Positions 11,327-54,001 of a stretch of DNA of 64,000 nt are shown piece by piece. The notes below the pieces were generated by a model. It searched no databases, was not told the DNA's origin, and was given only the letters and a program-made list of their open reading frames with translations. Position 1 is the stretch's first letter, and each line of letters opens with the position of its first letter. A program made the translations under genes and the position numbers. Where the stretch lies: positions 32,001-96,000 of IMG/VR virus record IMGVR_UViG_3300048854_000126; one strand, written 5' to 3'. The DNA is from a virus.

Positions 11327-11518
11327 ATGAAGAGGAACCTGCTGTGCCTTTTGGGCGTGGCCGTGCTGACGGTGTTCGCCACGGTGGTGACCGGCTCATA
11401 CCGGAATGACGCCGTAGCAGCGTCGGTCGTGATCCCGCCGCACGTGCCCGTCACGCAGTCGGCACCGATGGTCCCGGTGCCGCGCGCCAACACATACGTG
11501 TATCGACCAGCGCATTAG
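11327..11518 (+). CDS. Small protein with N-terminal signal or membrane segment
   Basis: GAGGGAG RBS, hydrophobic N-terminus. Confidence 0.55.
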   Translation: MKRNLLCLLGVAVLTVFATVVTGSYRNDAVAASVVIPPHVPVTQSAPMVPVPRANTYVYRPAH

Positions 11519-11579: not shown

Positions 11580-11787
11580 GTCATTGAAGCCGCGCCGCAA
11601 GCAAATCCCCGGTAGTGCCCGCGTGACCGGATAAACGCGCACAAATGAAAGGGTAGTAGCTGGGCGGGCCTAGCAAACGCAGACGGTGAACACGTAGAAG
11701 CTGAACCTACGCTCTCCCGCGGTCCTTGTGACCGGCATCGTATATCTGCGATGGCGCCGGATCGTTCCCGGCAGCGGCCTCAATGAC
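11580..11787 (+). ncRNA. Candidate structured RNA with tRNA-like 3' end
   Basis: 13/14 bp terminal pairing 11580-11593 with 11774-11787; T-arm-like GCCGG-ATCGTTC-CCGGC; internal hairpins; no convincing ORF. Confidence 0.4.
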
Positions 11788-11808
11788 GTCTTTTTACGAG
11801 GAGAACCC

Positions 11809-12870: not shown

Positions 12871-12941
12871 CAAGCAAGCTGCCTGACTATAATAAATAGT
12901 AAGCAGTGACCTATATACAGCAGTCTTAACGAGGAGTTTTC

Positions 12942-13619
12942 ATGACGAAAGTAGCAAACACGATGGATTCAACGACCTACGCTCGCGCGGTTCTCGAAAC
13001 GGAATCGAAACCGAAATCGATCAACTTCGGACCCATGACGCTCGCGCTGGCGTTGCAGCTGGCGATCGAGACGAGCAAGGTGCTGGATCAGGTCAAGCGG
13101 GCGATCTACTACGGCAAGGATATCGACCAGAAAATCGCCATGGGCGCACTGGAAACGATCGCCAAGCTCTCGAATGACATCGCGTTCCCGGTCGGCAGCG
13201 GTCGCTATCGCGACCCGCGCGATGCCGACTTCTACCCGAATGTGGCGCAGGAGAGCCGTCAAAACATTTCCCTGGATGCGCTGAACGTTCGCCTGTTGCA
13301 CGCGGCCCTCGGCTTGCAGACCGAATCGGGCGAGTTCATCGAAGCGCTGATGCCGACGCTGTTCGGCGGCCCGCTCGACAAGGTGAACCTGCTGGAAGAA
13401 CTGGGCGATGGCCCGGGCTGGTATGCGGAAGTGGCGCTCGATGAGCTCGGCTTCACCCGCGAGCAGTGCAACTTCACGAATATCAAGAAGCTGCAGGACA
13501 AGAGGAACGGCCGCTACAAGAAGGGTGCATTCGATCCGAACGCTGCCGTCCAGCGTGACACGGCCGCCGAGCGTGGTCTGTTGGAAGACGGCGCGTCCAG
13601 CGAGCGCAAGGCTGCCTGA
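12942..13619 (+). CDS. MazG-like nucleotide pyrophosphohydrolase
   Basis: LLHAALGLQTESGE ... NLLEELGD ... NIKKL. Confidence 0.8.
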   Translation: MTKVANTMDSTTYARAVLETESKPKSINFGPMTLALALQLAIETSKVLDQVKRAIYYGKDIDQKIAMGALETIAKLSNDIAFPVGSGRYRDPRDADFYPNVAQESRQNISLDALNVRLLHAALGLQTESGEFIEALMPTLFGGPLDKVNLLEELGDGPGWYAEVALDELGFTREQCNFTNIKKLQDKRNGRYKKGAFDPNAAVQRDTAAERGLLEDGASSERKAA

Positions 13620-14245
13620 TGCTTGGCCTCTGCGGACCCCACCGAACGGGAAAGAGCACGCTCGCAAAGGCGTTCGCAGAAGCTACCGGCACACGGTATG
13701 TGCAAACCGGGGCTTCCGCAACGTTCGCGCGACTCGGTTTCGACCCGAAGAAGGACTACGACTTCGCGACGCGGCTCAAGATCCAGCGCGAGATTCTGCG
13801 TGACTGCAATGCGCTCTACGAGAAGGCAGGGGTGCGGTTCATTACTGATCGCACGCCGATCGACTTGCTGGGCTATACGCTCGCTGACGTGACGCGCGAA
13901 AACGTCCCGCTTGCGCTCGCGGCCGGTCTGGATAGCTACATCGCCGAGTGCTACGCGTGTGTGAACCAGCATTTCACCACGCTGGTCCTGGTCCAGCCCG
14001 GTATTCCGCTGGTCGAGGCGGAAGGGAAGGCTCCGGCCAACCCTGCCTACATCGAGCACTTGAACGCCCTGATGCTGGGCTTGATGGCAGCCGAGCCGCT
14101 CGAGTGCGACCACTACAAGATTCCTCGTGCCTGCATTGACCTGGATCTTCGAGTGGCGGCGGTCGGGCAAGCGGCGAGCCGGTCTGCGTCACGCCATGTG
14201 GCGTCGATGGCAGCGGCGCACGAAGCAGGGCTTGTGCTGCATTAA
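13619..14245 (+). CDS. P-loop nucleotide kinase (dNMP kinase/AAA_28-like)
   Basis: GPHRTGKST, ITDRTPID. Confidence 0.75.
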   Translation: MLGLCGPHRTGKSTLAKAFAEATGTRYVQTGASATFARLGFDPKKDYDFATRLKIQREILRDCNALYEKAGVRFITDRTPIDLLGYTLADVTRENVPLALAAGLDSYIAECYACVNQHFTTLVLVQPGIPLVEAEGKAPANPAYIEHLNALMLGLMAAEPLECDHYKIPRACIDLDLRVAAVGQAASRSASRHVASMAAAHEAGLVLH

Positions 14246-14350
14246 ATCCGTAGGATAAAATAAGTCATCGCTGACTATTGCCGATAAGAGAGAACTACAC
14301 TTCAAGGTGTCGGTTCTCTCTTTAAATTCAATTACATACAGGACGTCACC

Positions 14351-14971
14351 ATGACGACAAACGTAAAGCTGAGCAATCATGCCCGCGACCGTATCATCGA
14401 AAACGCCTTGCGTGGCGCATTCGATAAGGAAACGCAGGCGCACAAGAAGCGCATGGTCAAACTCGCCGACCAGTGCTACCGCTTCGTCGTAACCGCGGCA
14501 CAGGAAAAGCAAGCGCGCTTGGCGCCGGACGATTTCCTGAACCTGTCCAACGTAACGAAGATTTACTTTAAAGACCCCGTGACCGGTTATAACCGCGACA
14601 CCGTATATGAGACGGACCTTTCACGCGCGGTGCCTTTTCCAGGGCGCGGCAACTATCTGAACGTCAATGACGATGCATTGCACGCGGAATACCGGGCAAT
14701 CATGGAAGCGAAATCCAACCTGGACAACAAACTCGGCGAGCTGAAGACGAGCCTCAAGCGCACGGTCTATTCGACGACATCGCTCAAGAAGCTGATCGAG
14801 ATGTGGCCCGAGGTCGAAGCGTTCCTGCCGGCTGACCTTACCGCGCCGAAGGCAATGCTGCCCGCTCTGCCAGTCGGTGACCTGAACGCAGCACTTCGTA
14901 ACGCCGGCATCAAGGTCGGCGTTATAAAGCCCGCGAAAGCAACGGGCGGCTTAGTTCTCGTCGCAGCATGA
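14351..14971 (+). CDS. Nmad5-like (nucleotide modification-associated domain 5) protein
   Basis: KLSN..RDRIIENAL start and TSLKKLIEMWPE..LPAL..LN end resemble the family. Confidence 0.55.
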   Translation: MTTNVKLSNHARDRIIENALRGAFDKETQAHKKRMVKLADQCYRFVVTAAQEKQARLAPDDFLNLSNVTKIYFKDPVTGYNRDTVYETDLSRAVPFPGRGNYLNVNDDALHAEYRAIMEAKSNLDNKLGELKTSLKRTVYSTTSLKKLIEMWPEVEAFLPADLTAPKAMLPALPVGDLNAALRNAGIKVGVIKPAKATGGLVLVAA

Positions 14972-15432
14972 CACCCGAACAACTCGACGCGCTTCAGGCG
15001 CTGGAAAGCGAACCCCCGAGCATGCGTGAGGAGCTCGAGCGCAAGGTCGCCGAAGAGATCGAGCGTGTCTATCTGGCCGCACGCGCCGGGAAGATCACCT
15101 CGTATGGCTACCACCAGGCTTTGCAAGGGCTCTGGGGCGGCGTAGCGGGGCTCGTGAGCCGGGAGTCGATGGAGATCATCACCGCGTCCCAGAAAGAGTT
15201 TCCGGGTGGCCTCACGGAGAAACGACGCGCCGCGTTCATTCTCGGCGAAGTCACCGCTGTGGTGTCGTGGGAAGTGGGCACCACCACGATCGAGACGGCA
15301 CTCAAAAAGCCGGGTTCGCCCGCAGTTGTCCAGAAGACAAAGATGGAAGACGACTCGGCCGCGTCCGCGCTCGTTCACTTCCTCAAAACCACGAAACGTT
15401 TCCGCGACATGCCGGGTGCGCAAGAAGTGTGA
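14968..15432 (+). CDS. Hypothetical protein
   Basis: ATGA overlap. Confidence 0.65.
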   Translation: MTPEQLDALQALESEPPSMREELERKVAEEIERVYLAARAGKITSYGYHQALQGLWGGVAGLVSRESMEIITASQKEFPGGLTEKRRAAFILGEVTAVVSWEVGTTTIETALKKPGSPAVVQKTKMEDDSAASALVHFLKTTKRFRDMPGAQEV

Positions 15433-15498
15433 TTCCGAGCTTTTTGCGTGACTATACTAAATAGTAACCCGTGACTTATTAACAACATTTGAGGGACC

Positions 15499-15963
15499 AT
15501 GAGCACCATTTCAGCCATTCGACTCGACGTCGCCAATCTCGTGAAACGCGCAAACGAAATCCAGATCGTGCGCGATGAAGACTTGCTCTACACGATCCTG
15601 GGCGAGTTGCAGAACAAGAGCGACGACCAGAAACAGGCGATCTTCGCGCAGTCCCGCAAGGGCGGTGGGGTAGTCCTCTTCGAGAGCGCGAACTTCCCCG
15701 GCAACATCGTTGAATACATTCCCGGCGTGCTGGAAACGGACAGCATCTCGTGTCTGTTCAAGCCGCACGCGGCGCTGGCGAGCGCCGGCACGCTGCTGAA
15801 GCTGCGCGAAGAGCTCGTTTCCGAGATTGAGCGTGTGAACGACGCTGCACCCGGCAACCTGCGCAAGCAAGACCCGGCCCGCAACCGCGCCGTGCTGCTC
15901 ATCGAGATGTCCACGCTGCAGCTGGCTGACACGCTCGCCGAAACCGGCCGCGTGAAGCTGTAA
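15499..15963 (+). CDS. Hypothetical protein
   Basis: GAGGG RBS, follows a palindromic motif. Confidence 0.7.
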   Translation: MSTISAIRLDVANLVKRANEIQIVRDEDLLYTILGELQNKSDDQKQAIFAQSRKGGGVVLFESANFPGNIVEYIPGVLETDSISCLFKPHAALASAGTLLKLREELVSEIERVNDAAPGNLRKQDPARNRAVLLIEMSTLQLADTLAETGRVKL

Positions 15964-32493: not shown

Positions 32494-33067
32494 TCCACGT
32501 ATAAGAACACCAATCCGCTCTATAAGGTCTCCGGGCTTTGGGTCCACGTATAAGAACTCCAGCGATTGGGGGCCGATCGTTGTCTTTCAATCGACGCTTG
32601 CCAGGATTTTCTTATACCTAGCGCGGGCCGGTGCCGAGGGCATGACCGTTGCTGAATGGAGGCAGCACCCCTCCAAGGCATGCCATGAAAGCAACAATAA
32701 CCTCCTTCTACTTTGCGGCAGTCCACGGCTTTACTGACCCGCATCCGTTCTTCGGCTTCGACCTCGAAGAACACGGGGCGGTCATTCGCTCGGACATCAT
32801 CTCTCTTCGCACAGCGCGCATTCTGGCGCAGGAGCTGGGCCGCGGAGCAGCGTTCGTCAAGATGCTCAAAGCCATTATGGAATGCCCGCCAAGTGATTAC
32901 GGGCTGTTGGTCGGCCAGGTGTTCGAAGATTGAGAGCGACAAAATCCAATCAGGTCCGTGGCTGAAATTCCGAGGACGCGCGGCCCGGTAGGAGCGCCTT
33001 GGCTCCCTATAAGGTTCGCCCGGCCCTATAAGGTTTGGCCCGTCTCCCTATAAGAATGCCCTATAAG
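32494..33067 (+). repeat. TATAAG-core repeats
   Basis: TCCACGTATAAGAAC at 32494 and 32543; CCCTATAAG at 33005, 33024, 33046, 33059. Confidence 0.75.
32685..32933 (+). CDS. Small hypothetical protein
   Basis: ATG ORF between repeat clusters. Confidence 0.5.
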   Translation: MKATITSFYFAAVHGFTDPHPFFGFDLEEHGAVIRSDIISLRTARILAQELGRGAAFVKMLKAIMECPPSDYGLLVGQVFED

Positions 33068-33132
33068 GTTCGGGGATCTCTGCATTAGAGATTTGGGCAG
33101 TAGAATGAATGCCCCTTTCCGAGGAGACCAAA

Positions 33133-35854: not shown

Positions 35855-36355
35855 CCCACCTGCATTTGCCGTTTGTTCTGCTTTACCTGAGTGAGTCCTA
35901 CCGTGAGACGTATGACTTTTGGCTGGTGACCTTCGGGTGCCCGCCTCTTTTTCGTGGCGTATTGCCGTGGCTCGTCGGCCCGTATAAGCGAATCGGCAAA
36001 GCCCGGCGTTGCAAGCGGGCAGGGCTCGAAATCCGTTCATATCCTCCTTGGAAATTGGGAGGACGCGCGGCCCGTATAGGCACCTTGGCAGGCCACGGCT
36101 AAAACGCGCACCCGGGCGCTGCCAAGAACCCGCCCTCTGCGTGCCCCTGCCGAGCACCGCGGTCGCCGATCGTTCGGGCCGCTAAGCATCACCCGCGCTA
36201 CCAGGGCGCGCGCACCTGGGCGAACGAGTGACACCCGCCGGGCGCTCTCTATCAGAAGTGCGCGCGCATGCGAATAGCACGACGAAAACGGGTTTACAAG
36301 AGGTCCTCTGAAATACCACACACAAAAGTTATGTGAATTTTTTCACGCATACCTA

Positions 36356-36384
36356 TTGCACTCGCAATAGCTAGCGGTTACTAT
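36356..36384 (+). promoter_or_regulatory. Sigma70-type promoter overlapped by palindromic operator-like motif
   Basis: TTGCAC-17 bp-TACTAT with AT-rich upstream; AATAGCTAGCGGTTACTATT at 36366-36385 covers the spacer and -10. Confidence 0.7.
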
Positions 36385-36458
36385 TTCTATACCGACTCGC
36401 ACAAAGCAAGCGGTTAGCGAAAAACGCTAAATCTCACACTCTCTCAAAGGTAATCAAA

Positions 36459-37133
36459 ATGAACGCACAAGTTAAAGAAACGGTCTTCACGCTCGAAAAC
36501 GTCATGCTGTCGATTCGTCGCGCAAATGACCGTTGGGCAGCAAAAACGGGTGAAGTGGGCGAGTGCGAAGACTTGAAAACCGCGCGCAAGTTTTGGGATG
36601 ACGCGCTCTGTGTTTTCGCTGTGTCGATGCTTAAGCGTGCGCGTATCGATGAACTGACGTTCTTGTCTACCATCGCTGACAAAATGGGCGTGAAAGCGGT
36701 TAAGCGCGTCTCTGAATTCTTCGCTTGCTTGCATGCGAAAGACTATACGAAGCTTGACGGTGTTACCGCGCTTTCCCTGCTGAGCGCGATTCATGCGGGC
36801 GCAACGTCACGCAGTGCACTGGTTTTCGCTAGCACGGGTAAGGGCGATGAATCGACGTCTGAGAATGTCGCGAATGTCGAGCTTGTGCGCAAGCTTCAAA
36901 AGACACTTAAGAAAGTGGGCACCACTACAGAAGCGACGCAGAATTCCCGCTCGTTTGGTGCGAATGGTTTTTGTGTCTATCTGAGCATGGGCGCAATGGT
37001 TAAGGTAGCGGGTAAGACTGAAAAGCAATTAGAGGTTAATGCAAAGTCACCTTTCATCGCTGCTATTGCGAAGATGGTCGAACAAGCTTCACCTGAAACC
37101 CTCGCACTGGTTAAGGGAGCAAAGAAAGACTAA
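36459..37133 (+). CDS. Hypothetical 224-aa protein, candidate immediate-early gene
   Basis: AAAGGT RBS, strong promoter, lower GC, no GCC codons. Confidence 0.8.
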   Translation: MNAQVKETVFTLENVMLSIRRANDRWAAKTGEVGECEDLKTARKFWDDALCVFAVSMLKRARIDELTFLSTIADKMGVKAVKRVSEFFACLHAKDYTKLDGVTALSLLSAIHAGATSRSALVFASTGKGDESTSENVANVELVRKLQKTLKKVGTTTEATQNSRSFGANGFCVYLSMGAMVKVAGKTEKQLEVNAKSPFIAAIAKMVEQASPETLALVKGAKKD

Positions 37134-37152
37134 ATAGTAACGTGTGACTAAT

Positions 37153-37180
37153 ACCGGGCGCATAGCGCGCCCGGTTCGTT
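37153..37180 (+). terminator. Hairpin after the 224-aa gene
   Basis: ACCGGGCGC-ATAGC-GCGCCCGGT. Confidence 0.5.
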
Positions 37181-37208
37181 CCCCTGCTACCTGAACCCAT
37201 ACCAGACC

Positions 37209-37397
37209 ATGAAAACCGCTCAAACCCGCTCTATCGCTCGCACCGTTCGCCCCCTCCCTGCTTTCGATGATATGCACGAAGACTATGCAAGCGACTATGA
37301 GCCCGGGCGATTCGACGCGCGCACGCTTGACGATAGCGAACGCAGCGCGCACGCATTCGATGCGTTCTCAATTGGGATTGACTCGCTAGCATTTTGA
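37209..37397 (+). CDS. Small acidic protein (62 aa)
   Basis: ATG ORF inside the motif-free zone; weak RBS. Confidence 0.5.
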   Translation: MKTAQTRSIARTVRPLPAFDDMHEDYASDYEPGRFDARTLDDSERSAHAFDAFSIGIDSLAF

Positions 37398-37603
37398 CAT
37401 CGCTCTTTAGTCGCATGCACTACTGACCATCGCGGGCAGTCGGACCCACCCGCGATTGTGACCACCAGCAGACGTCGGTGGTCTTAGACGGCAACGCTAT
37501 CTTGGTGGGGCCTCGCGCCTAATTTTTTTGCCAGGACGAACCCGATCCTTATACAGCCAGGCGGGCCGTGGGAAACACGATCCTTATAGGGCCAAGGCAC
37601 AGT

Positions 37604-37663
37604 GGGGCTAGGGGTTTGGGGCGTGGGATAGGGGAGCAGGGGCCGTGGGGAAGGGGATTTGGG
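37604..37663 (+). other. G-quadruplex-capable tract
   Basis: Nine runs of 3-4 G separated by 2-4 nt loops. Confidence 0.65.
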
Positions 37664-37776
37664 TTTTGAGCGGCCCCACATGGTCAATCCCAGTCTCGCG
37701 GCCCTGCGGGGCCAGGCAGACGGCGCTGGCGGGCGCTGGCGCGCCCACAGCTACCGTCGATGCCTCGTAGCTGCGA

Positions 37777-39100: not shown

Positions 39101-39703
39101 CTAGGAAATTCCCGTCCTAAACCGAGGCAGGAACCCGTCCAACATCTGGCTGATCTCGGCCCCGCTACCAATGAAAGAGATAGGGCCGTCAAAATCGATT
39201 GCGTTTTGCTGCATGCCGACCGGCTTTTCCTTGGGGTCTAGCACCATCGTCAGGCCCCCAACATGATGGATTGCTGCGAGTCCGCGCGAGCCATCGTCAA
39301 GCGATCCCGATAAGACGATCCCGACCGATCGCTTTCCGATGTTTTCCGCAATCGATTCGAACAGGGCATCGACCGTGCGATTTCTTAGGCGGTTGTTCGA
39401 CCCGTCGATCAAGAACGCGGACCCGTCATCCAAGAGCGTCAGCGGGCGGTCAGGCAAACCGATATAACAAATTCCCGGCGTCAGCACTTGCCCGTCCCGA
39501 GCGATGTTCACTTGAACCGCAGGACAGTGGGTCGCAAGGACTTCTCTCAAGTTGGTCGGCGCCTCACTTGCCCGATGCAGCACAACCAACAATACGGCAT
39601 AAGCGGCATTGGGCCATCTGTTGAGCAGTTCAATAATGTCCGAAAGCCCCTCACTTCCGGAAGCGCCAATTGCAACGCAAAAGGGGTGATTCTCTTGATT
39701 CAT
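39101..39703 (-). CDS. Stand-alone CheB-type methylesterase domain
   Basis: VAIGASG, VVLH, VDALFESIAE, GIVLSGSLDDGSRGL (Ser-His-Asp triad). Confidence 0.8.
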   Translation of the reverse strand: MNQENHPFCVAIGASGSEGLSDIIELLNRWPNAAYAVLLVVLHRASEAPTNLREVLATHCPAVQVNIARDGQVLTPGICYIGLPDRPLTLLDDGSAFLIDGSNNRLRNRTVDALFESIAENIGKRSVGIVLSGSLDDGSRGLAAIHHVGGLTMVLDPKEKPVGMQQNAIDFDGPISFIGSGAEISQMLDGFLPRFRTGIS

Positions 39704-40398
39704 GGTTTCACCTGTGGGCTTTGTTCAAGTTCACCGATTGGGTCATTGAACGACGGATCGTTGTTGGTCGCCTTGTTGACTTCCCTGCTCACCGGGAACC
39801 AACGGAACGCCTCGACCGGCGTGCCGAGGTCGGTGGCCAGGTGCAGCGCATCCTCGAACGTCGTGCTCGGCTCGAGCCACTGGCGCGCGTCCTGCGCGGA
39901 CAGGACCAGCGGGCGCCGGTCGTGAACGTCGAGCATGCCGGCCTCTGCCGCGTCGGTGACGATGACAAAGCCGTCGCCTTCCTGCGGGGTCGGCGAGCCC
40001 GGGCGCACGCTGCTGAGGCCCGCGAAGTAGAGCGGCTCGCCGTCGATCGGCACGATGAAGTAGGGTTGTTTGCCGGCCTCGGTTGCGATCCACTCATACC
40101 AGCCGTCCGCGGGCACGATCACGCGGCCCGTCTTCCAGAGCCCCTTCCAGGTCGATGAGCTCGCCTTGTCGATCCGAGCATTTATCATCAGCGGGATTTT
40201 GCGCGCCACCGCCCAGGCGGGCCGATGGCCCCACTTTTCGAGATGCACGCCCTCCGCTCGGAGCACCGGCTGCAGCTGGCTGGGCGCGACGTTCCAGCTC
40301 GGCCGGAAGGGGTCGCCCGCCTCCGGATAGATCGCATCAGGGAAGAGGGGCACCACGTAGTCGAGGCCCTGCCTCGCGCGAGAGAAACGGCCACACAT
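39700..40398 (-). CDS. SRAP/YedK (HMCES-like) abasic-site-processing protein
   Basis: MCGRF N-terminus, WNVAP, INAR, ADGWYEW, VHDRRP. Confidence 0.92.
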   Translation of the reverse strand: MCGRFSRARQGLDYVVPLFPDAIYPEAGDPFRPSWNVAPSQLQPVLRAEGVHLEKWGHRPAWAVARKIPLMINARIDKASSSTWKGLWKTGRVIVPADGWYEWIATEAGKQPYFIVPIDGEPLYFAGLSSVRPGSPTPQEGDGFVIVTDAAEAGMLDVHDRRPLVLSAQDARQWLEPSTTFEDALHLATDLGTPVEAFRWFPVSREVNKATNNDPSFNDPIGELEQSPQVKP

Positions 40399-40443
40399 TC
40401 GACACCTCCGTCGTCGGTTTGACCTTATCTTAGCCGCCAATGC

Positions 40444-43372: not shown

Positions 43373-43433
43373 TTCTTGCCTTATAGGAAGCCCGCTTGTA
43401 TAGTAAGCGGTGACTTATTTATGTGAGCGCATT

Positions 43434-44096
43434 ATGGCACTTTCGCCAACCTCGATCCACCCCGAACAGAGCACGGTTCAGATAGACAGTCTGCGACCGA
43501 ATCCCTGGAACACCAACCAGATGACGATCGAAAACGAGGCGAAGCTCGATGAGAGCATCAAACGTTTCGGCGTCTACAAACCGGTGGTCGTGCGCCCGAG
43601 CCCGGACGGCGACGGCTTCGAGATCCTGGGCGGTCAACACCGCTGGGAATCGGCCCAACGTCTCGGCTACACCGAGATTCCCATCGTCAACGTCGGACCG
43701 GTCAGCGACACGATCGCGAAAGAGATTGGCCTCGTTGATAACGGCCGCTACGGCGAAGACGACACCCTCGCGCTGTCGCGCTTGCTCAAAGAGCTCGGCG
43801 CTGAAGACGTCGGCGCATTCCTGCCCTACACGGACAGTGAGCTCGAAACGATTCTCGCAGCGTCAAGTATAGACATCGACGACCTGGACAAACTCGATGA
43901 CATGGAGATGCCTGATCTCTCCGGCGCGGGTGTTGGCGCCACGCATCAGGTGATGCGTTTCAAGGTGCCAGTCGATGACGTTGCGTGGGTCACCTCCGCG
44001 ATCGAGCGCCGCCAGCGCGAACAAGGCTTTACCTCCGAAGACTCCATGACGAACGCGGGTAACGCCTTCGTCGATCTCATGAAGGCATACAAATGA
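43434..44096 (+). CDS. ParB/Srx N-terminal domain protein
   Basis: PNPWNTN, SIKRFG, PVVVR, ILGGQHRW. Confidence 0.85.
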   Translation: MALSPTSIHPEQSTVQIDSLRPNPWNTNQMTIENEAKLDESIKRFGVYKPVVVRPSPDGDGFEILGGQHRWESAQRLGYTEIPIVNVGPVSDTIAKEIGLVDNGRYGEDDTLALSRLLKELGAEDVGAFLPYTDSELETILAASSIDIDDLDKLDDMEMPDLSGAGVGATHQVMRFKVPVDDVAWVTSAIERRQREQGFTSEDSMTNAGNAFVDLMKAYK

Positions 44097-44584
44097 AAAG
44101 CTACATCGGAACAAAAGTCATTAACGCCAAGCCGATGACGCGTGGCGAATACAACATTCTGCGCGGCTGGGACTTGCCAGCGGGCGAGAACGGCGCCGAC
44201 GAAGGCTACCTGGTCGAATACCTGGATGGCGGCAAGGTGAACGTTCCCGGATTCGCCAACTACGTGAGCTGGTCGCCGAAGGACGTGTTCGAGCGGTCCT
44301 ACATTGAGCACCCAACTTCAGGTTTTAGCTTCGGCTACGCCATCACGCTGATGAAAGCCGGGCTAAAAGTGGCGCGCGTTGGCTGGAATGGCAAGGGCAT
44401 GTTCGTCTATTACGTTCCCCCGGCGTCCTATCCGGTTCAGACAGGGGCCGCAAAGTCACACTTCGGCGATGGATCGCTGATTCCCTACAACGCCTATATG
44501 GCGATCAAGAACGTCGACGAGACGGTGAGCACCTGGGTTCCGAGTGCGAACGACTGCCTGGCTGTCGATTGGATGGTGGTATGA
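44093..44584 (+). CDS. Two-domain protein with C-terminal DUF2829/Tad2-like domain
   Basis: FGYAITLMKAGLKVARVGWNGKGMF ... WVPSANDCLAVDW; separate N-domain YIGTK ... YVSWSPKDVFERSY. Confidence 0.75.
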   Translation: MKSYIGTKVINAKPMTRGEYNILRGWDLPAGENGADEGYLVEYLDGGKVNVPGFANYVSWSPKDVFERSYIEHPTSGFSFGYAITLMKAGLKVARVGWNGKGMFVYYVPPASYPVQTGAAKSHFGDGSLIPYNAYMAIKNVDETVSTWVPSANDCLAVDWMVV

Positions 44585-44823
44585 GCAAGCCGACTGGTTT
44601 CGCCCGCATCCCGCGTGCTGAGTTCCTCTACCCGGAATGCCAGCACTGCTATTTCCACAATCGTGAGCCTGCAATCTGCGAAGGCTGCGAGAACGGCGAC
44701 GAGTATGAGCCGGCCGACGACCTGGATGACAAGCTCTCCGAGCGAAAGGCCGCGATCGTGCGGTTCTTCCGGGTCAATAGTCCGGTGGTCCAGCTCGAAG
44801 ACGAGCATCTGGAGGCCGCATGA
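44581..44823 (+). CDS. Small zinc-finger protein
   Basis: CQHC ... CEGC. Confidence 0.6.
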   Translation: MSKPTGFARIPRAEFLYPECQHCYFHNREPAICEGCENGDEYEPADDLDDKLSERKAAIVRFFRVNSPVVQLEDEHLEAA

Positions 44824-45464
44824 TTACCCGCAAAGAGACGATGTGGGCCGTTGACAAGCTCATTCCCTACGCGAAGAACGTCAAGAAGCATGACGCCGCG
44901 CAGGTGAACAAGATCGTTGAGTCGATCCAGCAGTTCAAGTGGACCCAGCCAGTGCTACTCGAGCCCGATGGCACGATCATCGCCGGCCACGGCCGCCGGC
45001 TCGCTGCCATTCAGCTCGGGCTGAAGGAAGTGCCGGCGGTCGTGATTTCGGGCCTCACTCCCGAGCAGGCCCGGGCGCTCCGGCTGGCCGACAACCGCAC
45101 GAACGAGGGCGGCATCGACACGCTCCTGTTCCGCGACGAGATTGAGGGCCTGGAAGGGCTGCTTACCGGCATTTTCGACGTGAAGGAGCTGGAGTTCTCC
45201 GCCGCGGATCTCGGCGAGCTCAACGACGCGGCATTCGTGCCCGATGTTGCCGAAGCGGTCGAGTTCCAAGAGCAGGTGGCGCACGCGAAAGCCGACGAAG
45301 TGAGCGCGCGCCGTGTGCCGCTCTCGAAGGTGTTCGGGTTCAAGGACGTGCCGGGCTCGGGCGAACTGGTCATCAACCGCTTCCTCGCGAAATCCCAAGC
45401 GGTGACGGGCCTGCAGGGTGCCGACGCAATGATTGCATTTCTTGAAATAGTAACAGGTGACTAA
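44820..45464 (+). CDS. Second ParB N-terminal domain protein
   Basis: LIPYAKN, SIQQF, IIAGHGRRLAA, LRLADN. Confidence 0.85.
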   Translation: MITRKETMWAVDKLIPYAKNVKKHDAAQVNKIVESIQQFKWTQPVLLEPDGTIIAGHGRRLAAIQLGLKEVPAVVISGLTPEQARALRLADNRTNEGGIDTLLFRDEIEGLEGLLTGIFDVKELEFSAADLGELNDAAFVPDVAEAVEFQEQVAHAKADEVSARRVPLSKVFGFKDVPGSGELVINRFLAKSQAVTGLQGADAMIAFLEIVTGD

Positions 45465-46181
45465 TTGAGCCATTACACGATCGACAAGCGTTTCCATACC
45501 CGTGTGGCACGCAGCCAGCGCGTGGTGGAGGTCGCTGAAGCGTTCGGCCTCGGGCTGGACGATAAGGAATTCGTGATCTTCGACAAGCTGGATCTCGAAG
45601 TGAATCAGGGCGACGTCCTCTACATCACCGGGCAGTCGGGTTCCGGCAAGTCGCTGCTGCTGCGCGAGCTGGCGCACCAGATGGCCGCGGAAGGGCAGAA
45701 GGTCGCGAACCTGGACGAAGTGGCGCTCGACCCGGATCTGCCGCTCATCGACCAGATCGGCACGTCCACCAACGATGCGATCCGGCTGCTGTCGATCGCG
45801 GGCCTGAACGACGCCTACCTCTTCATTCGCAAGCCCGGCGAGCTCTCTGACGGCCAGCGCTACCGCTTCAAGCTCGCCAAGGCCATCGAGAGCCAGGCCG
45901 ACGTCTGGGTCGCCGACGAGTTCATGGCGGTGCTCGATCGCACGGCCGCCAAGGTGATCGCGTTCGCGCTGCAAAAGACCGCGCGCAAGGTCAACGCGAC
46001 GGTGATCGTTGCGACGACCCACCTCGACCTCGTGGAAGACCTGCAGCCGTCCCTCTACATCGAGAAGCGCTACCGGGAGAAGCTGCGCGTCGAAGCGCTC
46101 ACAGCGCTTTCTGACGCGTCTGAGGGGCATCGCGCGATGACGCGTGACGAAGCATTCGAACTTTTGAAAAGGATGGCGTGA
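45465..46181 (+). CDS. Soluble ABC-type ATPase
   Basis: GQSGSGKS, LSDGQ signature, ADEF, ATTH; no adjacent permease. Confidence 0.85.
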   Translation: MSHYTIDKRFHTRVARSQRVVEVAEAFGLGLDDKEFVIFDKLDLEVNQGDVLYITGQSGSGKSLLLRELAHQMAAEGQKVANLDEVALDPDLPLIDQIGTSTNDAIRLLSIAGLNDAYLFIRKPGELSDGQRYRFKLAKAIESQADVWVADEFMAVLDRTAAKVIAFALQKTARKVNATVIVATTHLDLVEDLQPSLYIEKRYREKLRVEALTALSDASEGHRAMTRDEAFELLKRMA

Positions 46182-46510
46182 TGAACAAGCAATACGACGC
46201 CGCGGTCGCGGCTTCCACGACCCGACCACAGGTCGTTTATTTCAGCGCGGTCTGGTGCGGCCCCTGCAAGATGCTCAAGCCCGCAATGCACGCGCTCAAG
46301 GCTGACTACGGCTTCGATTACGTCGAGCTGGACGTCGCAGATTTCACGCCCGCGGAGCTGCAAACGCTCGGCGTGCGGAACCTGCCGAACGTGCGCGTGC
46401 TGTCGAACACGGTGGTCAAAAGCCAGTTCGTCGGCGCGCGCACCAAGGGCCAGGTCAAGGACTGGCTCACCGCGAACATGGTCATTGCTGACGGGCTAGA
46501 CTTCGAATGA
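46181..46510 (+). CDS. Thioredoxin
   Basis: WCGPC active site. Confidence 0.9.
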   Translation: MNKQYDAAVAASTTRPQVVYFSAVWCGPCKMLKPAMHALKADYGFDYVELDVADFTPAELQTLGVRNLPNVRVLSNTVVKSQFVGARTKGQVKDWLTANMVIADGLDFE

Positions 46511-47487
46511 CTTGCCCCGCCACCGCGGTCGCGCTCGACCTCGTGCCGCCCGAGCAGAACGACCTGAACAACGCTATCTTCGCCTGGCGCGACCCCGCGG
46601 CGGGCACGCGGCCGCTGTCGCTGCTCAAGCACATGTATGTGGAGCGCGGAACGCTCGAAGACTGGCAACTGCTGCACGAATTGCATTACAAGGCGAGCCA
46701 GAACGGCATCGGGCCGCGCTACGTGCGCCTGGTGATCGATGACGGCGTGGACGCGCCGCTCACCATCGGCGTGATGGTGTTCACCGTGCCCAAGCCGCTC
46801 GATTCGGGCCGCAATCAGGTGTTCCCGCACATGCGGCCGAACCAGAACGGGCGCGACACCAAGCTCATGAACGTGCAGCGCATGGCGTGGATCAACAAAA
46901 ACCTGATCCTGTCCTCGCGCACAGTGCTCGACACGATGTATCGCGGCGGCGGAATTGCCTACCGCTTCAAGAACATTGGCTACCGGCTGATGGGCTTCAG
47001 GTATGTGGAAAGCCGCAGCTCGATGAGCCGCTACAACCCGTTCTCGATCAAGGCCGGCATGCGCTTCGTGAAGCCGAAGTCGGCGCCTGCGTTCGAGTCG
47101 GGCCTGGCGTTCTTTGCGCGGCACTTCAAGAGCCCGGCCTACGACTATGTGGCGATCAAACAGGAGATCGAGGCGATGCCCGATTACCTGCGCGAGCACA
47201 CGTTGAAGGAGCTGCGCGCCTTCTACTACCGCAACAGTTCGATGGAGAAGTCGGGCGACAACCGGCTGAACGGCACGAGCCGCGTCGAGACGATGGAGCT
47301 CGGCTACCTCCTCAAGCAAACCCAGCAGCTTGTCTTCGGCGCGACCGTCTACGCCGCCTGGAGCAATCCCGACTGGGACGCGACAACCGAGTCGATGCGG
47401 CCGCTGCCGGCGCGCATCCCGCTTTCCGCTTTCGATAACCAAGGCGTTGACGAGCCGTTGCGCCTTGACCTTTTGGAGACAGCATGA
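46507..47487 (+). CDS. GNAT-like (possibly Mom-related) transferase
   Basis: LHELHY, SRTVLDTMYRGGGIAYR acyl-CoA-binding pattern, SSMSRYNPFSIKAGM. Confidence 0.6.
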   Translation: MTCPATAVALDLVPPEQNDLNNAIFAWRDPAAGTRPLSLLKHMYVERGTLEDWQLLHELHYKASQNGIGPRYVRLVIDDGVDAPLTIGVMVFTVPKPLDSGRNQVFPHMRPNQNGRDTKLMNVQRMAWINKNLILSSRTVLDTMYRGGGIAYRFKNIGYRLMGFRYVESRSSMSRYNPFSIKAGMRFVKPKSAPAFESGLAFFARHFKSPAYDYVAIKQEIEAMPDYLREHTLKELRAFYYRNSSMEKSGDNRLNGTSRVETMELGYLLKQTQQLVFGATVYAAWSNPDWDATTESMRPLPARIPLSAFDNQGVDEPLRLDLLETA

Positions 47488-47705
47488 AAACGAACGCCAA
47501 AACCCTTTGCATCGTCGGCACCAAAGGCACGCTCTCGCCCTGGACGATGGAGTGCCTCGAATCAGCAGAGTCCGCCCGCGGCATGTCCTACGACTTCGTG
47601 ATCTGGTGCCGCACGCCGACCGAGAGCGAATACCGCACGGTGGCGAACACGCTCAAGACGTCCGAGGTGGGCGAGCAGTTCTGGGTCTGCCGGAAGCCGA
47701 AATGA
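47484..47705 (+). CDS. Small hypothetical protein
   Basis: Coupled on both sides. Confidence 0.6.
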   Translation: MKTNAKTLCIVGTKGTLSPWTMECLESAESARGMSYDFVIWCRTPTESEYRTVANTLKTSEVGEQFWVCRKPK

Positions 47706-48154
47706 ATCTGACGATCAAGCAGATCGAGATCATGAAAGTGGTCGTGGCGGGGGTGGGCGCCGCCACGGTTGACCTCGATCAGCTCCTCGAGCGCTTGCCC
47801 TACAAGACCACGAAGGAAAGCCTGCAGTTCTCGCTGCGCGCGATCGAGCGGCACGGGCTGATTGACCGCAGCTTCGCCGAGCATCGGCGCGGGCGAGTGC
47901 GCCGGCTGATCCGGGCCACCGAGCTCGGCAAAGCGGTGGTTGGCGGGACCGGCAGGCCGGCGCCAGGGCCTGGCGCCGCGGTCGCGGCAACGGAACCGAT
48001 CTTCACTCCCGAGGCGTCAACGATGCCCGAGCCGGAGACCGCCTCCCTACCGGAAGAGATAAGCGCGAACTTACCCGAGCCGGAGATTCTTTCTCTCCCG
48101 GAGCTTCTCTTTCCCGAGCCGGTCGATGTTTTCGAAGAAGAGTTGATTGAGTGA
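47702..48154 (+). CDS. Winged-helix DNA-binding protein with Pro/Glu-rich tail
   Basis: LTIKQIEIM ... DLDQLLERL ... SLQFSLRAIERHGLI ... TELG. Confidence 0.65.
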   Translation: MNLTIKQIEIMKVVVAGVGAATVDLDQLLERLPYKTTKESLQFSLRAIERHGLIDRSFAEHRRGRVRRLIRATELGKAVVGGTGRPAPGPGAAVAATEPIFTPEASTMPEPETASLPEEISANLPEPEILSLPELLFPEPVDVFEEELIE

Positions 48155-48174
48155 AATTTCGGTAAGTTTTGCAG

Positions 48175-48276
48175 CTTGTCACTTTTTGGGGTTTCCCTCT
48201 TATATATACCTTTTTCTTTTAAAACCTCTTTGTTTACAGCTTTTAAAAATTAAGGGAACCCCCAAAAAGTGACAAG
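48175..48276. repeat. 24-bp inverted repeat around an AT-rich core
   Basis: CTTGTCACTTTTTGGGGTTTCCCT / AGGGAACCCCCAAAAAGTGACAAG (23/24) flanking 54 AT-rich bp. Confidence 0.85.
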
Positions 48277-48485
48277 TAAGTAAGGACCTTTGAAGATCAT
48301 CCCGGTTCGGGAACAAGGACACGAGAAGCGATGAAAGGAAGGCTGCGGGTGGGAAAGTCCGCTCAAAAAAATAAGTCACGGCTTATTTACTTTTTGTCCG
48401 GCACCGGATATAGTTTGCTCCTAACGCAATACCTCCAAGGGGCAGACCGACATGGCTGCCCCATTTTTTTTGTGGGAACTGAATC

Positions 48486-52032: not shown

Positions 52033-52110
52033 GACGATTGGGCCGAGTGACCGGCCTAACTTTCACACACCAGACCAAGAGAACGGTCGACACGAAAAGG
52101 TAGCAACGAG

Positions 52111-53010
52111 ATGCACAAGATCCTGATGAAGATGATGGCCTGCGGTGGTTACATGGCGCCCGAAGGTGAACACGTCGAGGGCGGCGGTGGCAATGGCGGC
52201 GGCGCAGGCACCGGCGGTAGCGGTGCTGGTGGCGAAGGCGGTGGCGGTGCCGGTGGTGACGGCAAGGGCAACCCCGGCGGCGAAGGTGGTCAGGGTGGTC
52301 AGGGCGACCCGAGCAAGAAGCCGTCTGACGCCGAAGCTGCGCTGCTGCGCGAGGTCATGGACAAAAAGGACAAGCTCAAGACCGCGAACGATCAGTTGAC
52401 GCAAGCGAATGCGCGCCTGAAGGAGTTCGATGGTCTGGACCCGAAAGAACTGCGTGCGCTGGTGCAGGCCAAGAAGGATGCCGAAACCGCGCAACTCGAA
52501 GCGAAGGGCCAATGGGACTCGTTGAAAGCCCAGATGGTCGAGCAACACGGACGCGAACTGCAGGTTGAACGTGATGGCCGCACGGCCGCCGAGCAGCACG
52601 CAGTGGAGCTCGCTTCGCAGATCGCAGAACTGACGGTGGGCAACGCCTTTGGGCAGTCCAAATTCATCGCTGACGAACTGACGCTCTCCGTTGCTAAGGC
52701 TCGTCGCGTCTATGGCGCGCACTTTGAATTCGTTGATGGCGCCGTCGTTGCATACGACAAGCCGGCCGGCTCGAAAGACCGGAACGTGCTGGTCGATAGC
52801 AAGGGCGAACCGCTCGCGTTCGAAGCCGCGTTGGCCAAGCTCGTCGATGCCGACCCGGACAAGGACACGCTGCTGAAATCGAAGCTCAAAACCGGTGCGG
52901 GATCGCACACCAACACGTCTGTAGCACCTGGCCGTCAGCCGGGCGCAAGCGTGCCGGTAACCGGTCGGGCAAAGATAGCGGCAGGACTGGCGAAAGCCGG
53001 GTTGAAGTAA
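52111..53010 (+). CDS. Capsid scaffolding protein
   Basis: Gly-rich N-terminus, coiled coil, position before capsid gene. Confidence 0.7.
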   Translation: MHKILMKMMACGGYMAPEGEHVEGGGGNGGGAGTGGSGAGGEGGGGAGGDGKGNPGGEGGQGGQGDPSKKPSDAEAALLREVMDKKDKLKTANDQLTQANARLKEFDGLDPKELRALVQAKKDAETAQLEAKGQWDSLKAQMVEQHGRELQVERDGRTAAEQHAVELASQIAELTVGNAFGQSKFIADELTLSVAKARRVYGAHFEFVDGAVVAYDKPAGSKDRNVLVDSKGEPLAFEAALAKLVDADPDKDTLLKSKLKTGAGSHTNTSVAPGRQPGASVPVTGRAKIAAGLAKAGLK

Positions 53011-53098
53011 GCCGCTTTTATTGTTGTAAACCCGTGGACTTCCTGATAAAGTAAGTCACGGGTTACTATATCCCGATTCTTTTCGAAAAGGAAACGCT

Positions 53099-54001
53099 AT
53101 GCCATTGCTGCAAGTCGAAGCCGACAAGCTGAGTAACAACCAGCTGGTCGCCGGTGTGATCGAGGAAATCATCGAGAAGGATGAGCTCTTCGCGCTGTTG
53201 CCGTTTATCGGTATCAACGGCAAAGCCTACGTGTATGACCGCGAAAACACGCTGGGTGATGCCGACTTCCTGTCGCCGAACGATGAAGTGAACGAATCGG
53301 CTGCCACGTTCACGGAAGTCGTGTCGAAGCTGCGCATCCTCGCGGGTGACGTGGACGTCGACAAGTTCCTGCAAGAAACCGAGTCGGACACGAACGACCA
53401 GCGCGCAACGCAGATCGGTCTGAAGGCAAAGGCCGTGGCGCGCAAGTTCAAGAAGACCATCGCACAGGGCAACGCCACTGTGAACACGAAGGAATTCGAC
53501 GGCTTGCCGCAGCTGGTGTCGGTCGCGCAAACGCTGGACGCTGATGAAAACGGTGCTGCACTGACGCTGAACATGCTCGACGAGCTGTCGGACGCTGTGA
53601 TCAACGGCGCCGACGCGTTCGTGATGCGTGCAGGCACCATCCGCGCATATCGCTCGCTGTTGTATGCAACCGGCGGTATCCAGCCGGCGATGGTCGAGAT
53701 TCCGAACTTCGGCCAGGCTGTTCTCGGCCACAACGGCATTCCGATCCTGCGCAACGACTGGCTGAGCGCGGACGAGAAGATGGGCACGGCAGACGCAACG
53801 TGCTCGATCTACGCGGTGCGCCTGAACGAGCTCGACGGCTTTCACGGCCTGTGGGGCGGCAAGGAAGCAGGTATCCGCGTGGAAGACATCGGCACGGTGC
53901 AGAACAAGGACGCAGACCGTATCCGCGTGAAGTGGTATTGCGGTTCGGCACTGAAGTCCACGCGGTCGCTGGCTCGTCTGCGGGGCATCAAAAACGTCTA
54001 A
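53099..54001 (+). CDS. Major capsid protein
   Basis: 300 aa after scaffold; EFDGL, RIRVKWY; terminator follows. Confidence 0.85.
   Translation: MPLLQVEADKLSNNQLVAGVIEEIIEKDELFALLPFIGINGKAYVYDRENTLGDADFLSPNDEVNESAATFTEVVSKLRILAGDVDVDKFLQETESDTNDQRATQIGLKAKAVARKFKKTIAQGNATVNTKEFDGLPQLVSVAQTLDADENGAALTLNMLDELSDAVINGADAFVMRAGTIRAYRSLLYATGGIQPAMVEIPNFGQAVLGHNGIPILRNDWLSADEKMGTADATCSIYAVRLNELDGFHGLWGGKEAGIRVEDIGTVQNKDADRIRVKWYCGSALKSTRSLARLRGIKNV

What the first reader, a model, noticed from the sequence alone, without database searches (positions are those of the whole stretch)
36308..37440. About 1.1 kb zone with no [ACT]GG[AC] / [GT]CC[AGT] on either strand
Seen: between TCCT at about 36304 and CGGA at 37441, every isolated GG is followed by T and every isolated CC is preceded by A (about 30 instances read by eye). 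GGC, GGA, GCC and TCC occur only inside runs of 3 or more, and GATC is also missing. About 50 hits of these 12 tetramers would be expected at 50% GC, and they are abundant elsewhere in the window. The rule holds across the promoter, the 224-aa gene (no GCC codons), the intergenic DNA and the 62-aa ORF, so it acts at the DNA level rather than through codon bias. The zone carries a near-consensus sigma70 promoter. Inference: this is the first-injected end of the virion DNA, kept free of a motif that is either chemically modified by the phage (so host RNA polymerase can read it) or attacked by a host defence; the 224-aa protein would be an immediate-early counter-defence or takeover factor.
Basis: partly seen in the sequence, partly recalled or inferred. 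Interest (0 to 1): 0.9.

Follow-up and report, generated by a model that had tools for sequence, protein, structure and literature searches.

The report
Early phage operon purged of GG/CC
A soil phage-plasmid and its relatives keep one small regulator operon (promoter to terminator) free of the DNA word H-GG-M / K-CC-D on both strands, even at the cost of codon and amino-acid choice, which means some still unidentified factor reads that short word and this one operon must escape it.

Summary
Window 36304-37441 (1137 bp) holds none of the 12 tetramers [ACT]GG[AC] / [GT]CC[AGT]. About 55-68 are expected, and the next longest gap in the 105-kb genome is 165 bp. Codon context shows selection at DNA level: every GGC or GGA codon follows a G.

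The same zone exists in all 13 homologous loci examined (8 complete, 5 relaxed). Cultured relatives have a stricter form: five Pseudomonas Nickieviruses and Rhizobium phage RHph_Y2_11 keep a 0.9-1.1 kb promoter-to-terminator unit with no GG or CC at all, so its proteins have no Gly, Pro or Trp. SSU5 and T5 lack it.

The zone is one transcription unit. It encodes a 224-aa protein, probably a winged-helix regulator, bracketed by an 18-bp palindrome that recurs 15 times in the window, plus a small acidic ORF.

My best reading is an immediate-early, self-exempt operon that must stay intact and readable while something reads GG:CC on DNA. No TGT, N6/N4 or C5 methyltransferase gene was found. A position at the first-injected end is plausible (long DTR in Nican01, flanking repeat arrays) but unproven.

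Other agents of this scan noted GG/CC-free early operons in other phages. What is new here is the context-limited dialect.

The parts
36304..37441 (.). Zone free of H-GG-M / K-CC-D on both strands (bounded by TCCT at 36304 and CGGA at 37441)
36338..36384 (+). Promoter: T-tract (36338-36343), -35 TTGCAC (36356-36361), 17-bp spacer, -10 TACTAT (36379-36384). It matches 7 of 12 consensus positions but is conserved in relatives.
   Evidence: equivalent TTGCAC-N17-TAGAAT in Nickievirus
36367..36384 (.). 18-bp palindrome ATAGCTA-GCGG-TTACTAT overlapping the spacer and -10; probable operator
   Evidence: 15 copies in the window against 0.05 expected
36447..36451 (+). Ribosome-binding site AAGGT inside the invariant AAGGTAATCAAAATG; a Shine-Dalgarno that itself avoids GGA
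   Evidence: other genes of the genome often use AGGA/GGAG/GAGG
36459..37133 (+). 224-aa gene of a conserved family (77 cluster representatives). The C-terminal half is winged-helix-like with an invariant TQNSRSFG segment. The protein is Pro-poor, and Trp is always followed by Ala, Asp or Ser.
37134..37151 (.). Second copy of the 18-bp palindrome, directly after the stop codon
37154..37174 (+). GC-rich hairpin after the 224-aa gene, built only from allowed words (CCGGGCGC...GCGCCCGG)
   Evidence: read directly
37209..37397 (+). 62-aa acidic ORF, conserved in 5 loci; other lineages carry a different small ORF here
37430..37488 (+). Two hairpins (37430-37455 and 37460-37483) followed by the conserved TCTTAGA.
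   Evidence: GTCTTAG also ends the Nickievirus zones
37544..37588 (+). Pair of GATCCTTATA boxes 35 bp apart, conserved 60-160 bp past the zone in all six genomes of the clade
37603..37673 (+). Array of about 9 GGGG/GGG tracts directly beside the GG-poor zone; Nickievirus has CCCC-tract repeats at the same relative place
33008..33071 (-). Oppositely oriented CCTTATA boxes. Together with 37544-37588 they bracket about 4.5 kb of low coding density, with the zone at its right edge.

Best explanation
The zone is one transcription unit of an SSU5/Nickievirus-like siphophage (here a 105-kb phage-plasmid from soil). It comprises a host-type promoter, a 224-aa gene for a probable winged-helix master regulator, a small acidic ORF and terminal hairpins. 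Selection acting on the DNA itself has removed the GG:CC step from both strands, in every context except GGT/ACC and runs of three or more.

This is the local dialect of a rule that related phages apply without exceptions: no GG or CC at all, and hence no Gly, Pro or Trp in the encoded proteins.

Inferred mechanism: in the first minutes after DNA entry, a factor that reads this short word on DNA is active. It could be a nuclease, a blocking modifier or a blocking binder, and it could be host- or phage-borne. This operon must stay intact and transcribable then, because its products (the regulator acting at the 18-bp palindromes found before many operons, plus a small protein) switch on or protect the rest of the genome. 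That is the logic of T5 pre-early DNA.
For: Shown:
- A unique 1137-bp gap against 165 bp for the next longest.
- An exact context rule: 234 GGT against 1 GG[AC].
- Context-dependent codon choice: 0 sites observed against a minimum of 11 in 2000 synonymous permutations.
- Trp is followed only by Ala, Asp or Ser, and the family has 1.0% Pro against 4.5% in the genome's proteins.
- The Shine-Dalgarno obeys the rule.
- The same zone is the lowest-density region in six whole genomes, is also present in L001, L013 and L014, and occurs in a 35%-identical relative, L066.
- Strict GG/CC-free units of 888-1137 bp, starting at the promoter, occur in five Nickieviruses and in Rhizobium phage RHph_Y2_11. 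Their proteins have 0 Gly, Pro or Trp.
- Palindromes lacking GG/CC are not depleted in the zones, so the target is specifically GG:CC.
- The 224-aa C-terminal half aligns with MarR/PadR/ArsR winged-helix regulators at Z 5.5-7.0, and the gene is bracketed by two of the 15 copies of the 18-bp palindrome.
- One RNA-library contig lies on the gene (weak).

Precedent for the logic: in T5, EcoRI sites and CRISPR targets matter only in first-step-transfer DNA, because pre-early products protect the rest (10.1101/866236).

Hints for a terminal position: Nican01 is classed 'DTR (long)' (PMC11256456), and inverted box clusters and G/C-tract arrays flank the zone.
Against: - No reader has been identified.
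- No terminus has been mapped, and no timing data exist.
- The assembly ends of G000 are far from the zone.
- T5's own first-step-transfer DNA shows no word dropout, and SSU5 has no zone, so the trait is neither universal nor tied to known two-step injectors.
- The zone proteins of the three clades are not detectably homologous, so a 'master regulator' role may not be general.
- The fold match is middling (Z below 8).
- Five loci of the clade (L002, L003, L004, L007, L066) tolerate 2-10 sites per kb, so the constraint can relax.
- The promoter matches only 7 of 12 consensus positions.
Confidence: 0.4

Rival explanations
1. Host-borne reader: a defence nuclease or CRISPR surveillance complex recognises GG:CC (for example the CC PAM of type I-F). 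Only the first-expressed or first-entering operon needs to be target-free, because its products neutralise the defence.
For: T5 precedent for EcoRI and CRISPR. The strict GG/CC ban in Pseudomonas phages equals the I-F PAM (my knowledge). These genomes clearly respond to restriction pressure: GTAC has 0 copies against about 170-200 expected, and AGGCCT, GGGCCC and CCATGG are depleted.
Against: ACC, CCC, GGT and GGG are kept in this clade, so it is not a CC PAM. A word that occurs every 17 bp is not a restriction site. A sporadic host system would hardly enforce a 100% ban across alpha-, beta- and gamma-proteobacterial hosts at the price of three amino acids. Cutting elsewhere in the genome would still kill the phage unless entry is stepwise.
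Confidence: 0.2
2. Phage's own DNA modification: virion DNA carries a bulky modification at GG[AC] that hinders unmodified host RNA polymerase, and the zone is the unmodified start-up cassette.
For: A conserved operon before terS encodes ParB_N, a Tad2-like protein, ParB_N, an ABC ATPase, a thioredoxin and a GNAT-like 326-aa protein (86-95% conserved). Mu Mom is a GNAT-fold DNA modifier (my knowledge). An Nmad5 domain and a P-loop kinase cluster are present. Short-motif guanine modification exists in other phages (CAjan: GA and GGC; my knowledge).
Against: No TGT/DpdA, N6/N4 or C5 methyltransferase in G000, and no TGT in Nican01, RHph_Y2_11, G004 or G005. The ParB-ABC-GNAT operon is also present in SSU5, which has no zone. 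HGGM-containing 6-mers (AGGCCT 0.11, TGGCCA 0.23 of expectation) are avoided genome-wide, as if unprotected.
Confidence: 0.15
3. A single-strand-directed enzyme (a DarT-like ADP-ribosyltransferase on G, or a CC-context deaminase) hits DNA opened in transcription bubbles. The most heavily transcribed early unit is exempted on both strands.
For: The zone starts within about 15-60 bp of the promoter and ends at the terminal hairpins, so it equals the transcribed and melted DNA. DarT enzymes read four-base single-strand motifs with the third base modified, and DarT1 targets guanine (PMC11543638). H-GG-M is a four-base word. The zone GC is 51% against 60% for the genome.
Against: E. coli DarT1 showed no consensus motif. 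No ART, NADAR or macro domain was found among the roughly 70 proteins scanned. In L006, L008 and L009 the zone extends 280-390 bp upstream of the 224-aa promoter. Lesions on the non-template strand would not block expression.
Confidence: 0.1
4. RNA-level escape: the transcript avoids an endoribonuclease, Rho or a CsrA/Rsm-type binder, as in ACA-less or GCU-less messages that resist MazF or MqsR.
For: The zone coincides with a transcription unit. Motif-less mRNAs are a known device (my knowledge). GGA is the Rsm/CsrA core.
Against: Both the word and its complement are absent from the sense strand, and residual sites in relaxed loci show no strand bias. TC (Rho's YC ligand) is not avoided, with GA/TC at 140 against 142 expected. 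GGGA is allowed, so GGA is still present in the RNA.
Confidence: 0.07
5. Mutational erosion: a local hypermutation process has worn the word away, with no benefit from its absence.
For: Lower GC in all zones (46-53% against 57-62%).
Against: There is no enrichment of the expected deamination products, with AG/CT and GA/TC at expectation. Compensatory GGGC use and preserved protein families over 35-78% identity point to purifying selection. The boundaries are sharp and conserved.
Confidence: 0.04

Closest known systems
First-step-transfer (pre-early) DNA of phage T5/BF23
   Same: A short, host-polymerase-read unit whose products are needed before the rest of the genome acts. Only this DNA must itself lack targets: EcoRI sites and CRISPR targets are harmful only there (10.1101/866236). 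It is flanked by complex repeats and inverted repeats (the iss region). The relative Nican01 has long direct terminal repeats.
   Different: T5 FST DNA shows no dropout of any short word. There are no A1/A2 homologues in the zone. The zone is 1.1-1.7 kb, not about 10 kb. Its terminal position and two-step entry are not shown. The avoided word is a 2-4 bp step, not a 6-bp site.
Restriction-site and PAM avoidance in phage genomes
   Same: Selection removes a short DNA word on both strands. The same genomes avoid GTAC completely.
   Different: Classical avoidance is genome-wide and concerns rare 4-8 bp sites. Here it is local and concerns a word expected every 17 bp (or every 8 bp in relatives), and it overrides amino-acid usage.
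Motif-less mRNAs that resist sequence-specific toxins (ACA-less for MazF, GCU-less for MqsR; my knowledge)
   Same: A gene that must work while a sequence-specific activity is on is written without the target.
   Different: Those cases are strand-specific and act at RNA level. Here both strands and the promoter-proximal DNA obey the rule.
Short-motif 7-deazaguanine modification (DpdA phages, e.g. CAjan GA/GGC; my knowledge)
   Same: An enzyme class that reads 2-3 bp guanine contexts on duplex DNA, with lineage-specific dialects.
   Different: No TGT/DpdA gene in this genome or in four zone-bearing relatives.
MarR/PadR/ArsR winged-helix regulators (for the 224-aa protein)
   Same: The C-terminal roughly 120 residues superpose at Z 5.5-7.0. 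The gene is flanked by 18-bp inverted repeats with a 4-bp spacer, which suit a dimeric winged-helix protein.
   Different: No Pfam or PHROG hit and no PDB sequence hit. There is an extra N-terminal helical domain. Z is below the level that proves kinship.

Membership tests
T5-type first-step-transfer / pre-early region | Lies in the long terminal repeat at the DNA end that enters first | not testable with these tools
   Only contigs were available, so no read starts could be seen. Nican01 is classed 'DTR (long)' without coordinates.
T5-type first-step-transfer / pre-early region | Encodes A1/A2-type transfer proteins | tested here: not met
   The zone proteins have no Pfam or PHROG family. An 'A1 protein' is annotated in RHph_Y2_11 but lies about 40 kb from its zone.
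T5-type first-step-transfer / pre-early region | Adjacent array of repeats and inverted repeats (injection stop signal) | tested here: inconclusive
   Inverted CCTTATA box clusters and G/C-tract arrays flank the zone. Their function is unknown.
T5-type first-step-transfer / pre-early region | Free of the sites that the protected-against nuclease cuts | tested here: met
   0 of about 55-68 expected H-GG-M words.
Classical restriction-site avoidance | Genome-wide depletion of a defined 4-8 bp site | tested here: not met
   The word has normal density outside the zone (spacing 16.6 bp). Palindromes without GG/CC are not depleted in zones.
CRISPR type I-F PAM (CC) depletion | All CC/GG removed | tested here: not met
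   ACC, CCC, GGT and GGG are retained in this clade. The feature is met only in the Nickievirus and Rhizobium phage zones.
DpdA / 7-deazaguanine DNA modification system | TGT-family transglycosylase gene in the phage | tested here: not met
   PF01702 is absent from G000, G004, G005, Nican01 and RHph_Y2_11, while the controls were positive.
DNA methyltransferase-based self-modification | N6/N4 or C5 methyltransferase gene | tested here: not met
   PF01555 and PF00145 are absent from G000.
MarR/PadR-type winged-helix regulator (224-aa protein) | Winged-helix fold | tested here: inconclusive
   Z 5.5-7.0 with rmsd about 3-4 A over 80-95 residues. Nearly all of the top 50 rows are of this class. 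Foldseek found nothing.
MarR/PadR-type winged-helix regulator (224-aa protein) | Palindromic operator at its own promoter | tested here: met
   An 18-bp palindrome overlaps the -10 and a second follows the stop codon. The family has 15 copies against 0.05 expected. Binding was not tested.

The most novel reading that the evidence does not exclude
A diversifying family of factors that read a 2-4 bp guanine step on DNA acts at the very start of infection in many phage-host systems. Phages answer by writing their first operon in a reduced alphabet.
Probability: 0.35. Interest if true: 0.9.

Novelty: new variant of a known kind. Interest (0 to 1): 0.8.

Why it matters
A DNA rule strong enough to dictate codon context, the ribosome-binding site and amino-acid content of a conserved operon implies a powerful, unrecognised sequence-reading activity in infected cells. 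That rule is conserved from Rhizobium to Pseudomonas to Burkholderia-type hosts. Cultured members (nickie, Nican01, RHph_Y2_11) make the question directly testable. I found no report of this in the papers searched.

Tried and rejected
- The genome-contig scan found no relative. tblastn of the 224-aa protein against annotated plasmids and phages found nothing. megablast of the region against phages found nothing.
- Foldseek against PDB gave no match, and BFVD gave only two uncharacterised proteins at TM about 0.5. There was no PDB sequence hit. The protein atlas gave only unnamed viral clusters.
- Gene presence/absence, full against relaxed zones: only DUF7338 (genome 1273-2001) tracks with full depletion, three genomes against three, and it is absent from Nickievirus and RHph_Y2_11. 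This is too weak to use.
- Gene presence/absence, zone-bearing phages against SSU5: only PhoH and a 214-aa unknown differ, and absences are unreliable at this divergence.
- Plasmid origin idea rejected: the replication/ParA region lies about 50 kb away.
- General restriction escape rejected.
- Rho avoidance rejected: TC is not depleted.
- DarT1 has no defined motif in the paper read.
- T5 FST shows no word dropout. SSU5 has no zone.
- The ZY21 record start is arbitrary, so it does not mark a terminus. No record carries the zone twice.
- Other palindrome-bearing promoter regions have only modestly longer word-free gaps (median 49 against 25 bp).
- RNA evidence is a single 226-nt contig in one metatranscriptome. 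The parts of the stretch without RNA cover say nothing.
- The zone proteins of the three clades showed no homology by hhalign or BLASTP.
- None of 76 relatives of the 224-aa protein lacks Gly, Pro and Trp.
Full report
**Observation.** The window holds 3802 copies of [ACT]GG[AC]/[GT]CC[AGT], one per 16.8 bp. The longest gap runs from 36304 to 37441 (1137 bp) and the next longest is 165 bp. All six reverse-complement word pairs have zero copies there, against about 55 expected from the zone's own composition and about 68 at the genome rate. The window belongs to a 105,119-bp single contig whose ends overlap by about 127 bp. In that whole genome the gap is unique.

**The rule is exact.** In six pooled zones, counting both strands, an isolated GG is followed by T 234 times and by A or C once. 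GGG runs are followed by any base, and CGGGC is enriched. An unbiased tetramer survey of 9.4 kb of pooled zones finds only these words absent, plus GGCC as a consequence and GTAC, which is absent genome-wide. GATC is about 2.7-fold low.

**The rule acts at DNA level, by selection.**
- In the 224-aa gene all six GGC codons and the single GGA follow a G.
- Both TCC codons precede a C, both CCT codons follow an A, and GCC is not used although it makes up 29% of Ala codons elsewhere in the genome.
- Resampling synonymous codons with genome usage gives 35 +/- 4 sites. Permuting the gene's own codons gives 21 on average, with a minimum of 11 in 2000 trials. The observed count is 0.
- In 14 family members Trp is followed only by Ala, Asp or Ser, whose codons start with G or T. 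Pro is 1.0% against 4.5% in the genome's proteins.
- The invariant ribosome-binding site AAGGTAATCAAAATG also obeys the rule.

**What the element is.** The large terminase is about 61% identical to those of SSU5, Cyrano and other phage-plasmids, and 58% identical to Pseudomonas phage Nican01. The genome carries ParA and a replication-type HTH protein at 17-19 kb, so it is an SSU5-like phage-plasmid. It also carries a DnaB-like helicase, a primase, PolIII-alpha, RNR, a ThyX-like protein and CobS/CobT-like proteins. The plasmid replication region lies about 50 kb from the zone.

**Conservation.** The 224-aa protein has 17 close homologues and 77 cluster representatives in the exhaustive search. 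The homologous DNA loci behave as follows.
- The largest word-free gap again covers this gene in L001 (1006 bp), L005 (786+523), L006 (1703), L008 (1475), L009 (1521), L013 (1563) and L014 (at least 1147).
- L002, L003, L004 and L007 show a relaxed form with 7-10 sites per kb against about 60 expected.
- In six complete genomes the zone is the single lowest-density kilobase.
- A 35%-identical relative (L066) has 2 sites in about 910 bp and does not avoid GG as such.

**A stricter form in cultured relatives.** An unbiased 'several expected words absent at once' scan singled out the zone in G000. It also singled out a 1083-bp stretch of Nican01 (96376-97459) that has no GG or CC at all, where the genome-wide spacing is 7.9 bp. 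I found this before consulting the scan's notebook.
- Four further Nickieviruses (ZY21, phiK7B1, nickie, hairong; 68-86% DNA identity) keep 1108-1137 bp free of GG/CC.
- Rhizobium phage RHph_Y2_11 has an 888-bp GG/CC-free unit at 10610-11498.
- Their four encoded proteins (183, 107, 188 and 64 aa) contain no Gly, Pro or Trp.
- The units start within or just upstream of a TTGCAC/TTGCAA-N17-TAGAAT-type promoter. They use a GG-free Shine-Dalgarno (GAGAG), and in Nickievirus they share the AATCAAAATG start context with this window.
- SSU5 has no such zone anywhere, and neither does T5 first-step-transfer DNA.
- The zone proteins of the three clades are not detectably homologous, and no relative of the 224-aa family lacks Gly, Pro and Trp. 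What is conserved is therefore the DNA rule and the layout, not the protein.

**Anatomy in the window.**
- T-tract, then -35 TTGCAC (36356-36361), a 17-bp spacer and -10 TACTAT (36379-36384). This is 7 of 12 consensus positions, so 'near-consensus' is an overstatement.
- An 18-bp palindrome overlaps the -10 (36367-36384) and a second copy follows the stop codon (37134-37151). The family has 15 copies in the window against 0.05 expected, mostly just upstream of gene starts.
- The 224-aa gene (36459-37133).
- A hairpin made only of allowed words (37154-37174).
- A 62-aa acidic ORF (37209-37397), conserved in five loci.
- Two hairpins (37430-37483).
- Beyond the zone, two GATCCTTATA boxes (37544, 37579) are conserved in all six genomes, followed by an array of about nine G-tracts.
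- Oppositely oriented boxes at 33008 and 33062 bracket about 4.5 kb of low coding density, with the zone at its right edge.
- Nickievirus zones end at GTCAAAGTCTTAG and are followed by CCCCTTACACAACCA repeats.

**The 224-aa protein.** The AlphaFold2 model has pLDDT 82.5. There are no Pfam, PHROG or PDB sequence hits and no Foldseek match. VIA-align against 48,161 chains places residues about 95-216 on MarR/PadR/ArsR-SmtB and viral F93 winged-helix regulators (Z 5.5-7.0), and nearly all of the top 50 rows are of that class. The Z values are middling, so this is a lead. It fits the invariant TQNSRSFG segment and the palindromes around the gene. I read the protein as the probable regulator that binds the 18-bp palindromes. 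Binding is untested.

**What reads the word?**
- It is not general restriction avoidance. Palindromes lacking GG/CC occur at expectation in the zones: 507/502, 146/150, 618/623 and 173/158 observed against expected.
- It is not a known phage-encoded modifier. No TGT, N6/N4 or C5 methyltransferase gene is present.
- The GNAT-like/ParB/ABC operon before terS is a candidate modifier, but SSU5, which lacks a zone, also has it.
- AGGCCT and TGGCCA are avoided genome-wide as if unprotected.
- It is not Rho, because TC is not avoided.
- It is not a CC PAM in this clade, because ACC and CCC are kept.
- DarT1 modifies guanine in single strands but has no defined motif (PMC11543638).

**Why the avoidance is local.** The one documented logic is T5's. 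EcoRI sites and CRISPR targets hurt only in first-step-transfer DNA, because pre-early products protect the rest (10.1101/866236). Nican01 is predicted virulent and classed 'DTR (long)' (PMC11256456). Together with the flanking repeat arrays, this makes a terminal, first-entering position plausible, but no coordinates exist and I could not map ends. Public runs were available only as contigs. One metatranscriptome contig (226 nt, 100% identical) lies on 36894-37119 and nowhere else in the 8 kb examined. That is a weak hint of expression.

**Relation to earlier notes of this scan.** Other agents reported GG/CC-free early operons in several other phage genomes. One note places such a zone at a tip of packaged DNA in a phage-plasmid family, and others describe different dialects. 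I treat these as unverified leads. They agree with my independent finding in Nickievirus and RHph_Y2_11. My genomes contradict the suspicion, raised for other phages, that a DpdA-type guanine modifier is required.

**Verdict.** The 'immediate-early, self-exempt operon' reading is the best supported, at about 0.4.

Noticed in passing
whole window and whole genome (G000), also G001-G005 and RHph_Y2_11: GTAC has 0 copies in each roughly 100-kb genome, against about 170-200 expected. AGGCCT, GGGCCC, CCATGG and TGGCCA are 4-9-fold depleted. Nican01 (339 GTAC) and SSU5 (282) do not avoid GTAC.
   Followed up: partly
window 2386, 7648, 11258, 14261, 15461, 26168, 36367, 37134, 43400, 45447, 50427, 53052, 54011, 57253, 57842: The 18-bp palindrome ATAGTAA-N4-TGACTAT occurs 15 times (0.05 expected), nearly always just before a gene start, including inside the structural module. 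It is a probable regulon of the zone's winged-helix protein.
   Followed up: partly
window 33008-33071 and 37544-37588: Inverted clusters of CCTTATA boxes bracket about 4.5 kb of low coding density. The downstream pair is conserved in six genomes. They are candidate end, packaging or stop signals.
   Followed up: partly
window 37603-37673: An array of about nine GGGG/GGG tracts (quadruplex-capable) lies immediately beside the GG-poor zone. Nickievirus has C-tract repeats at the same place.
   Followed up: partly
window 48118-48283: This is the second-longest word-free gap: a 36%-GC spacer upstream of terS with a long inverted repeat (GTCACTTTTTGGGG ... CCCCAAAAAGTGAC). A similar gap lies near the terminase genes in G003-G005. 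It is a candidate packaging site.
   Followed up: no
window 43410-47705: An operon before terS encodes ParB_N, a Tad2-like (anti-Thoeris) domain protein, an 84-aa protein, ParB_N, an ABC ATPase, a thioredoxin, a GNAT-like 326-aa protein (87-90% conserved) and a 73-aa protein. It is also present in SSU5, Nican01 and RHph_Y2_11.
   Followed up: partly
L011:9803-13147 (genome 25803-29147): The PolIII-alpha subunit carries a C-terminal uracil-DNA-glycosylase-superfamily domain (PF03167, residues 962-1066).
   Followed up: no
window 39101-40440 (- strand): A CheB-type methylesterase domain protein lies next to an SRAP (abasic-site) peptidase. Both are accessory: CheB is absent from five relatives and SRAP is present in one.
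   Followed up: no
window 11728-15963: A nucleotide cluster: a long ThyX-like protein, a P-loop kinase (AAA_28), an Nmad5 'nucleotide modification associated' domain and three unknowns.
   Followed up: no
window 36894-37119: This is the only piece of the 8-kb neighbourhood present in a soil metatranscriptome assembly (226 nt, 100% identical).
   Followed up: partly
RHph_Y2_11 52062-53924 (L053): A T5 'A1 protein' homologue is annotated in a zone-bearing relative, far from its zone. A sigma-70-type factor gene is also present (68029-68664).
   Followed up: no
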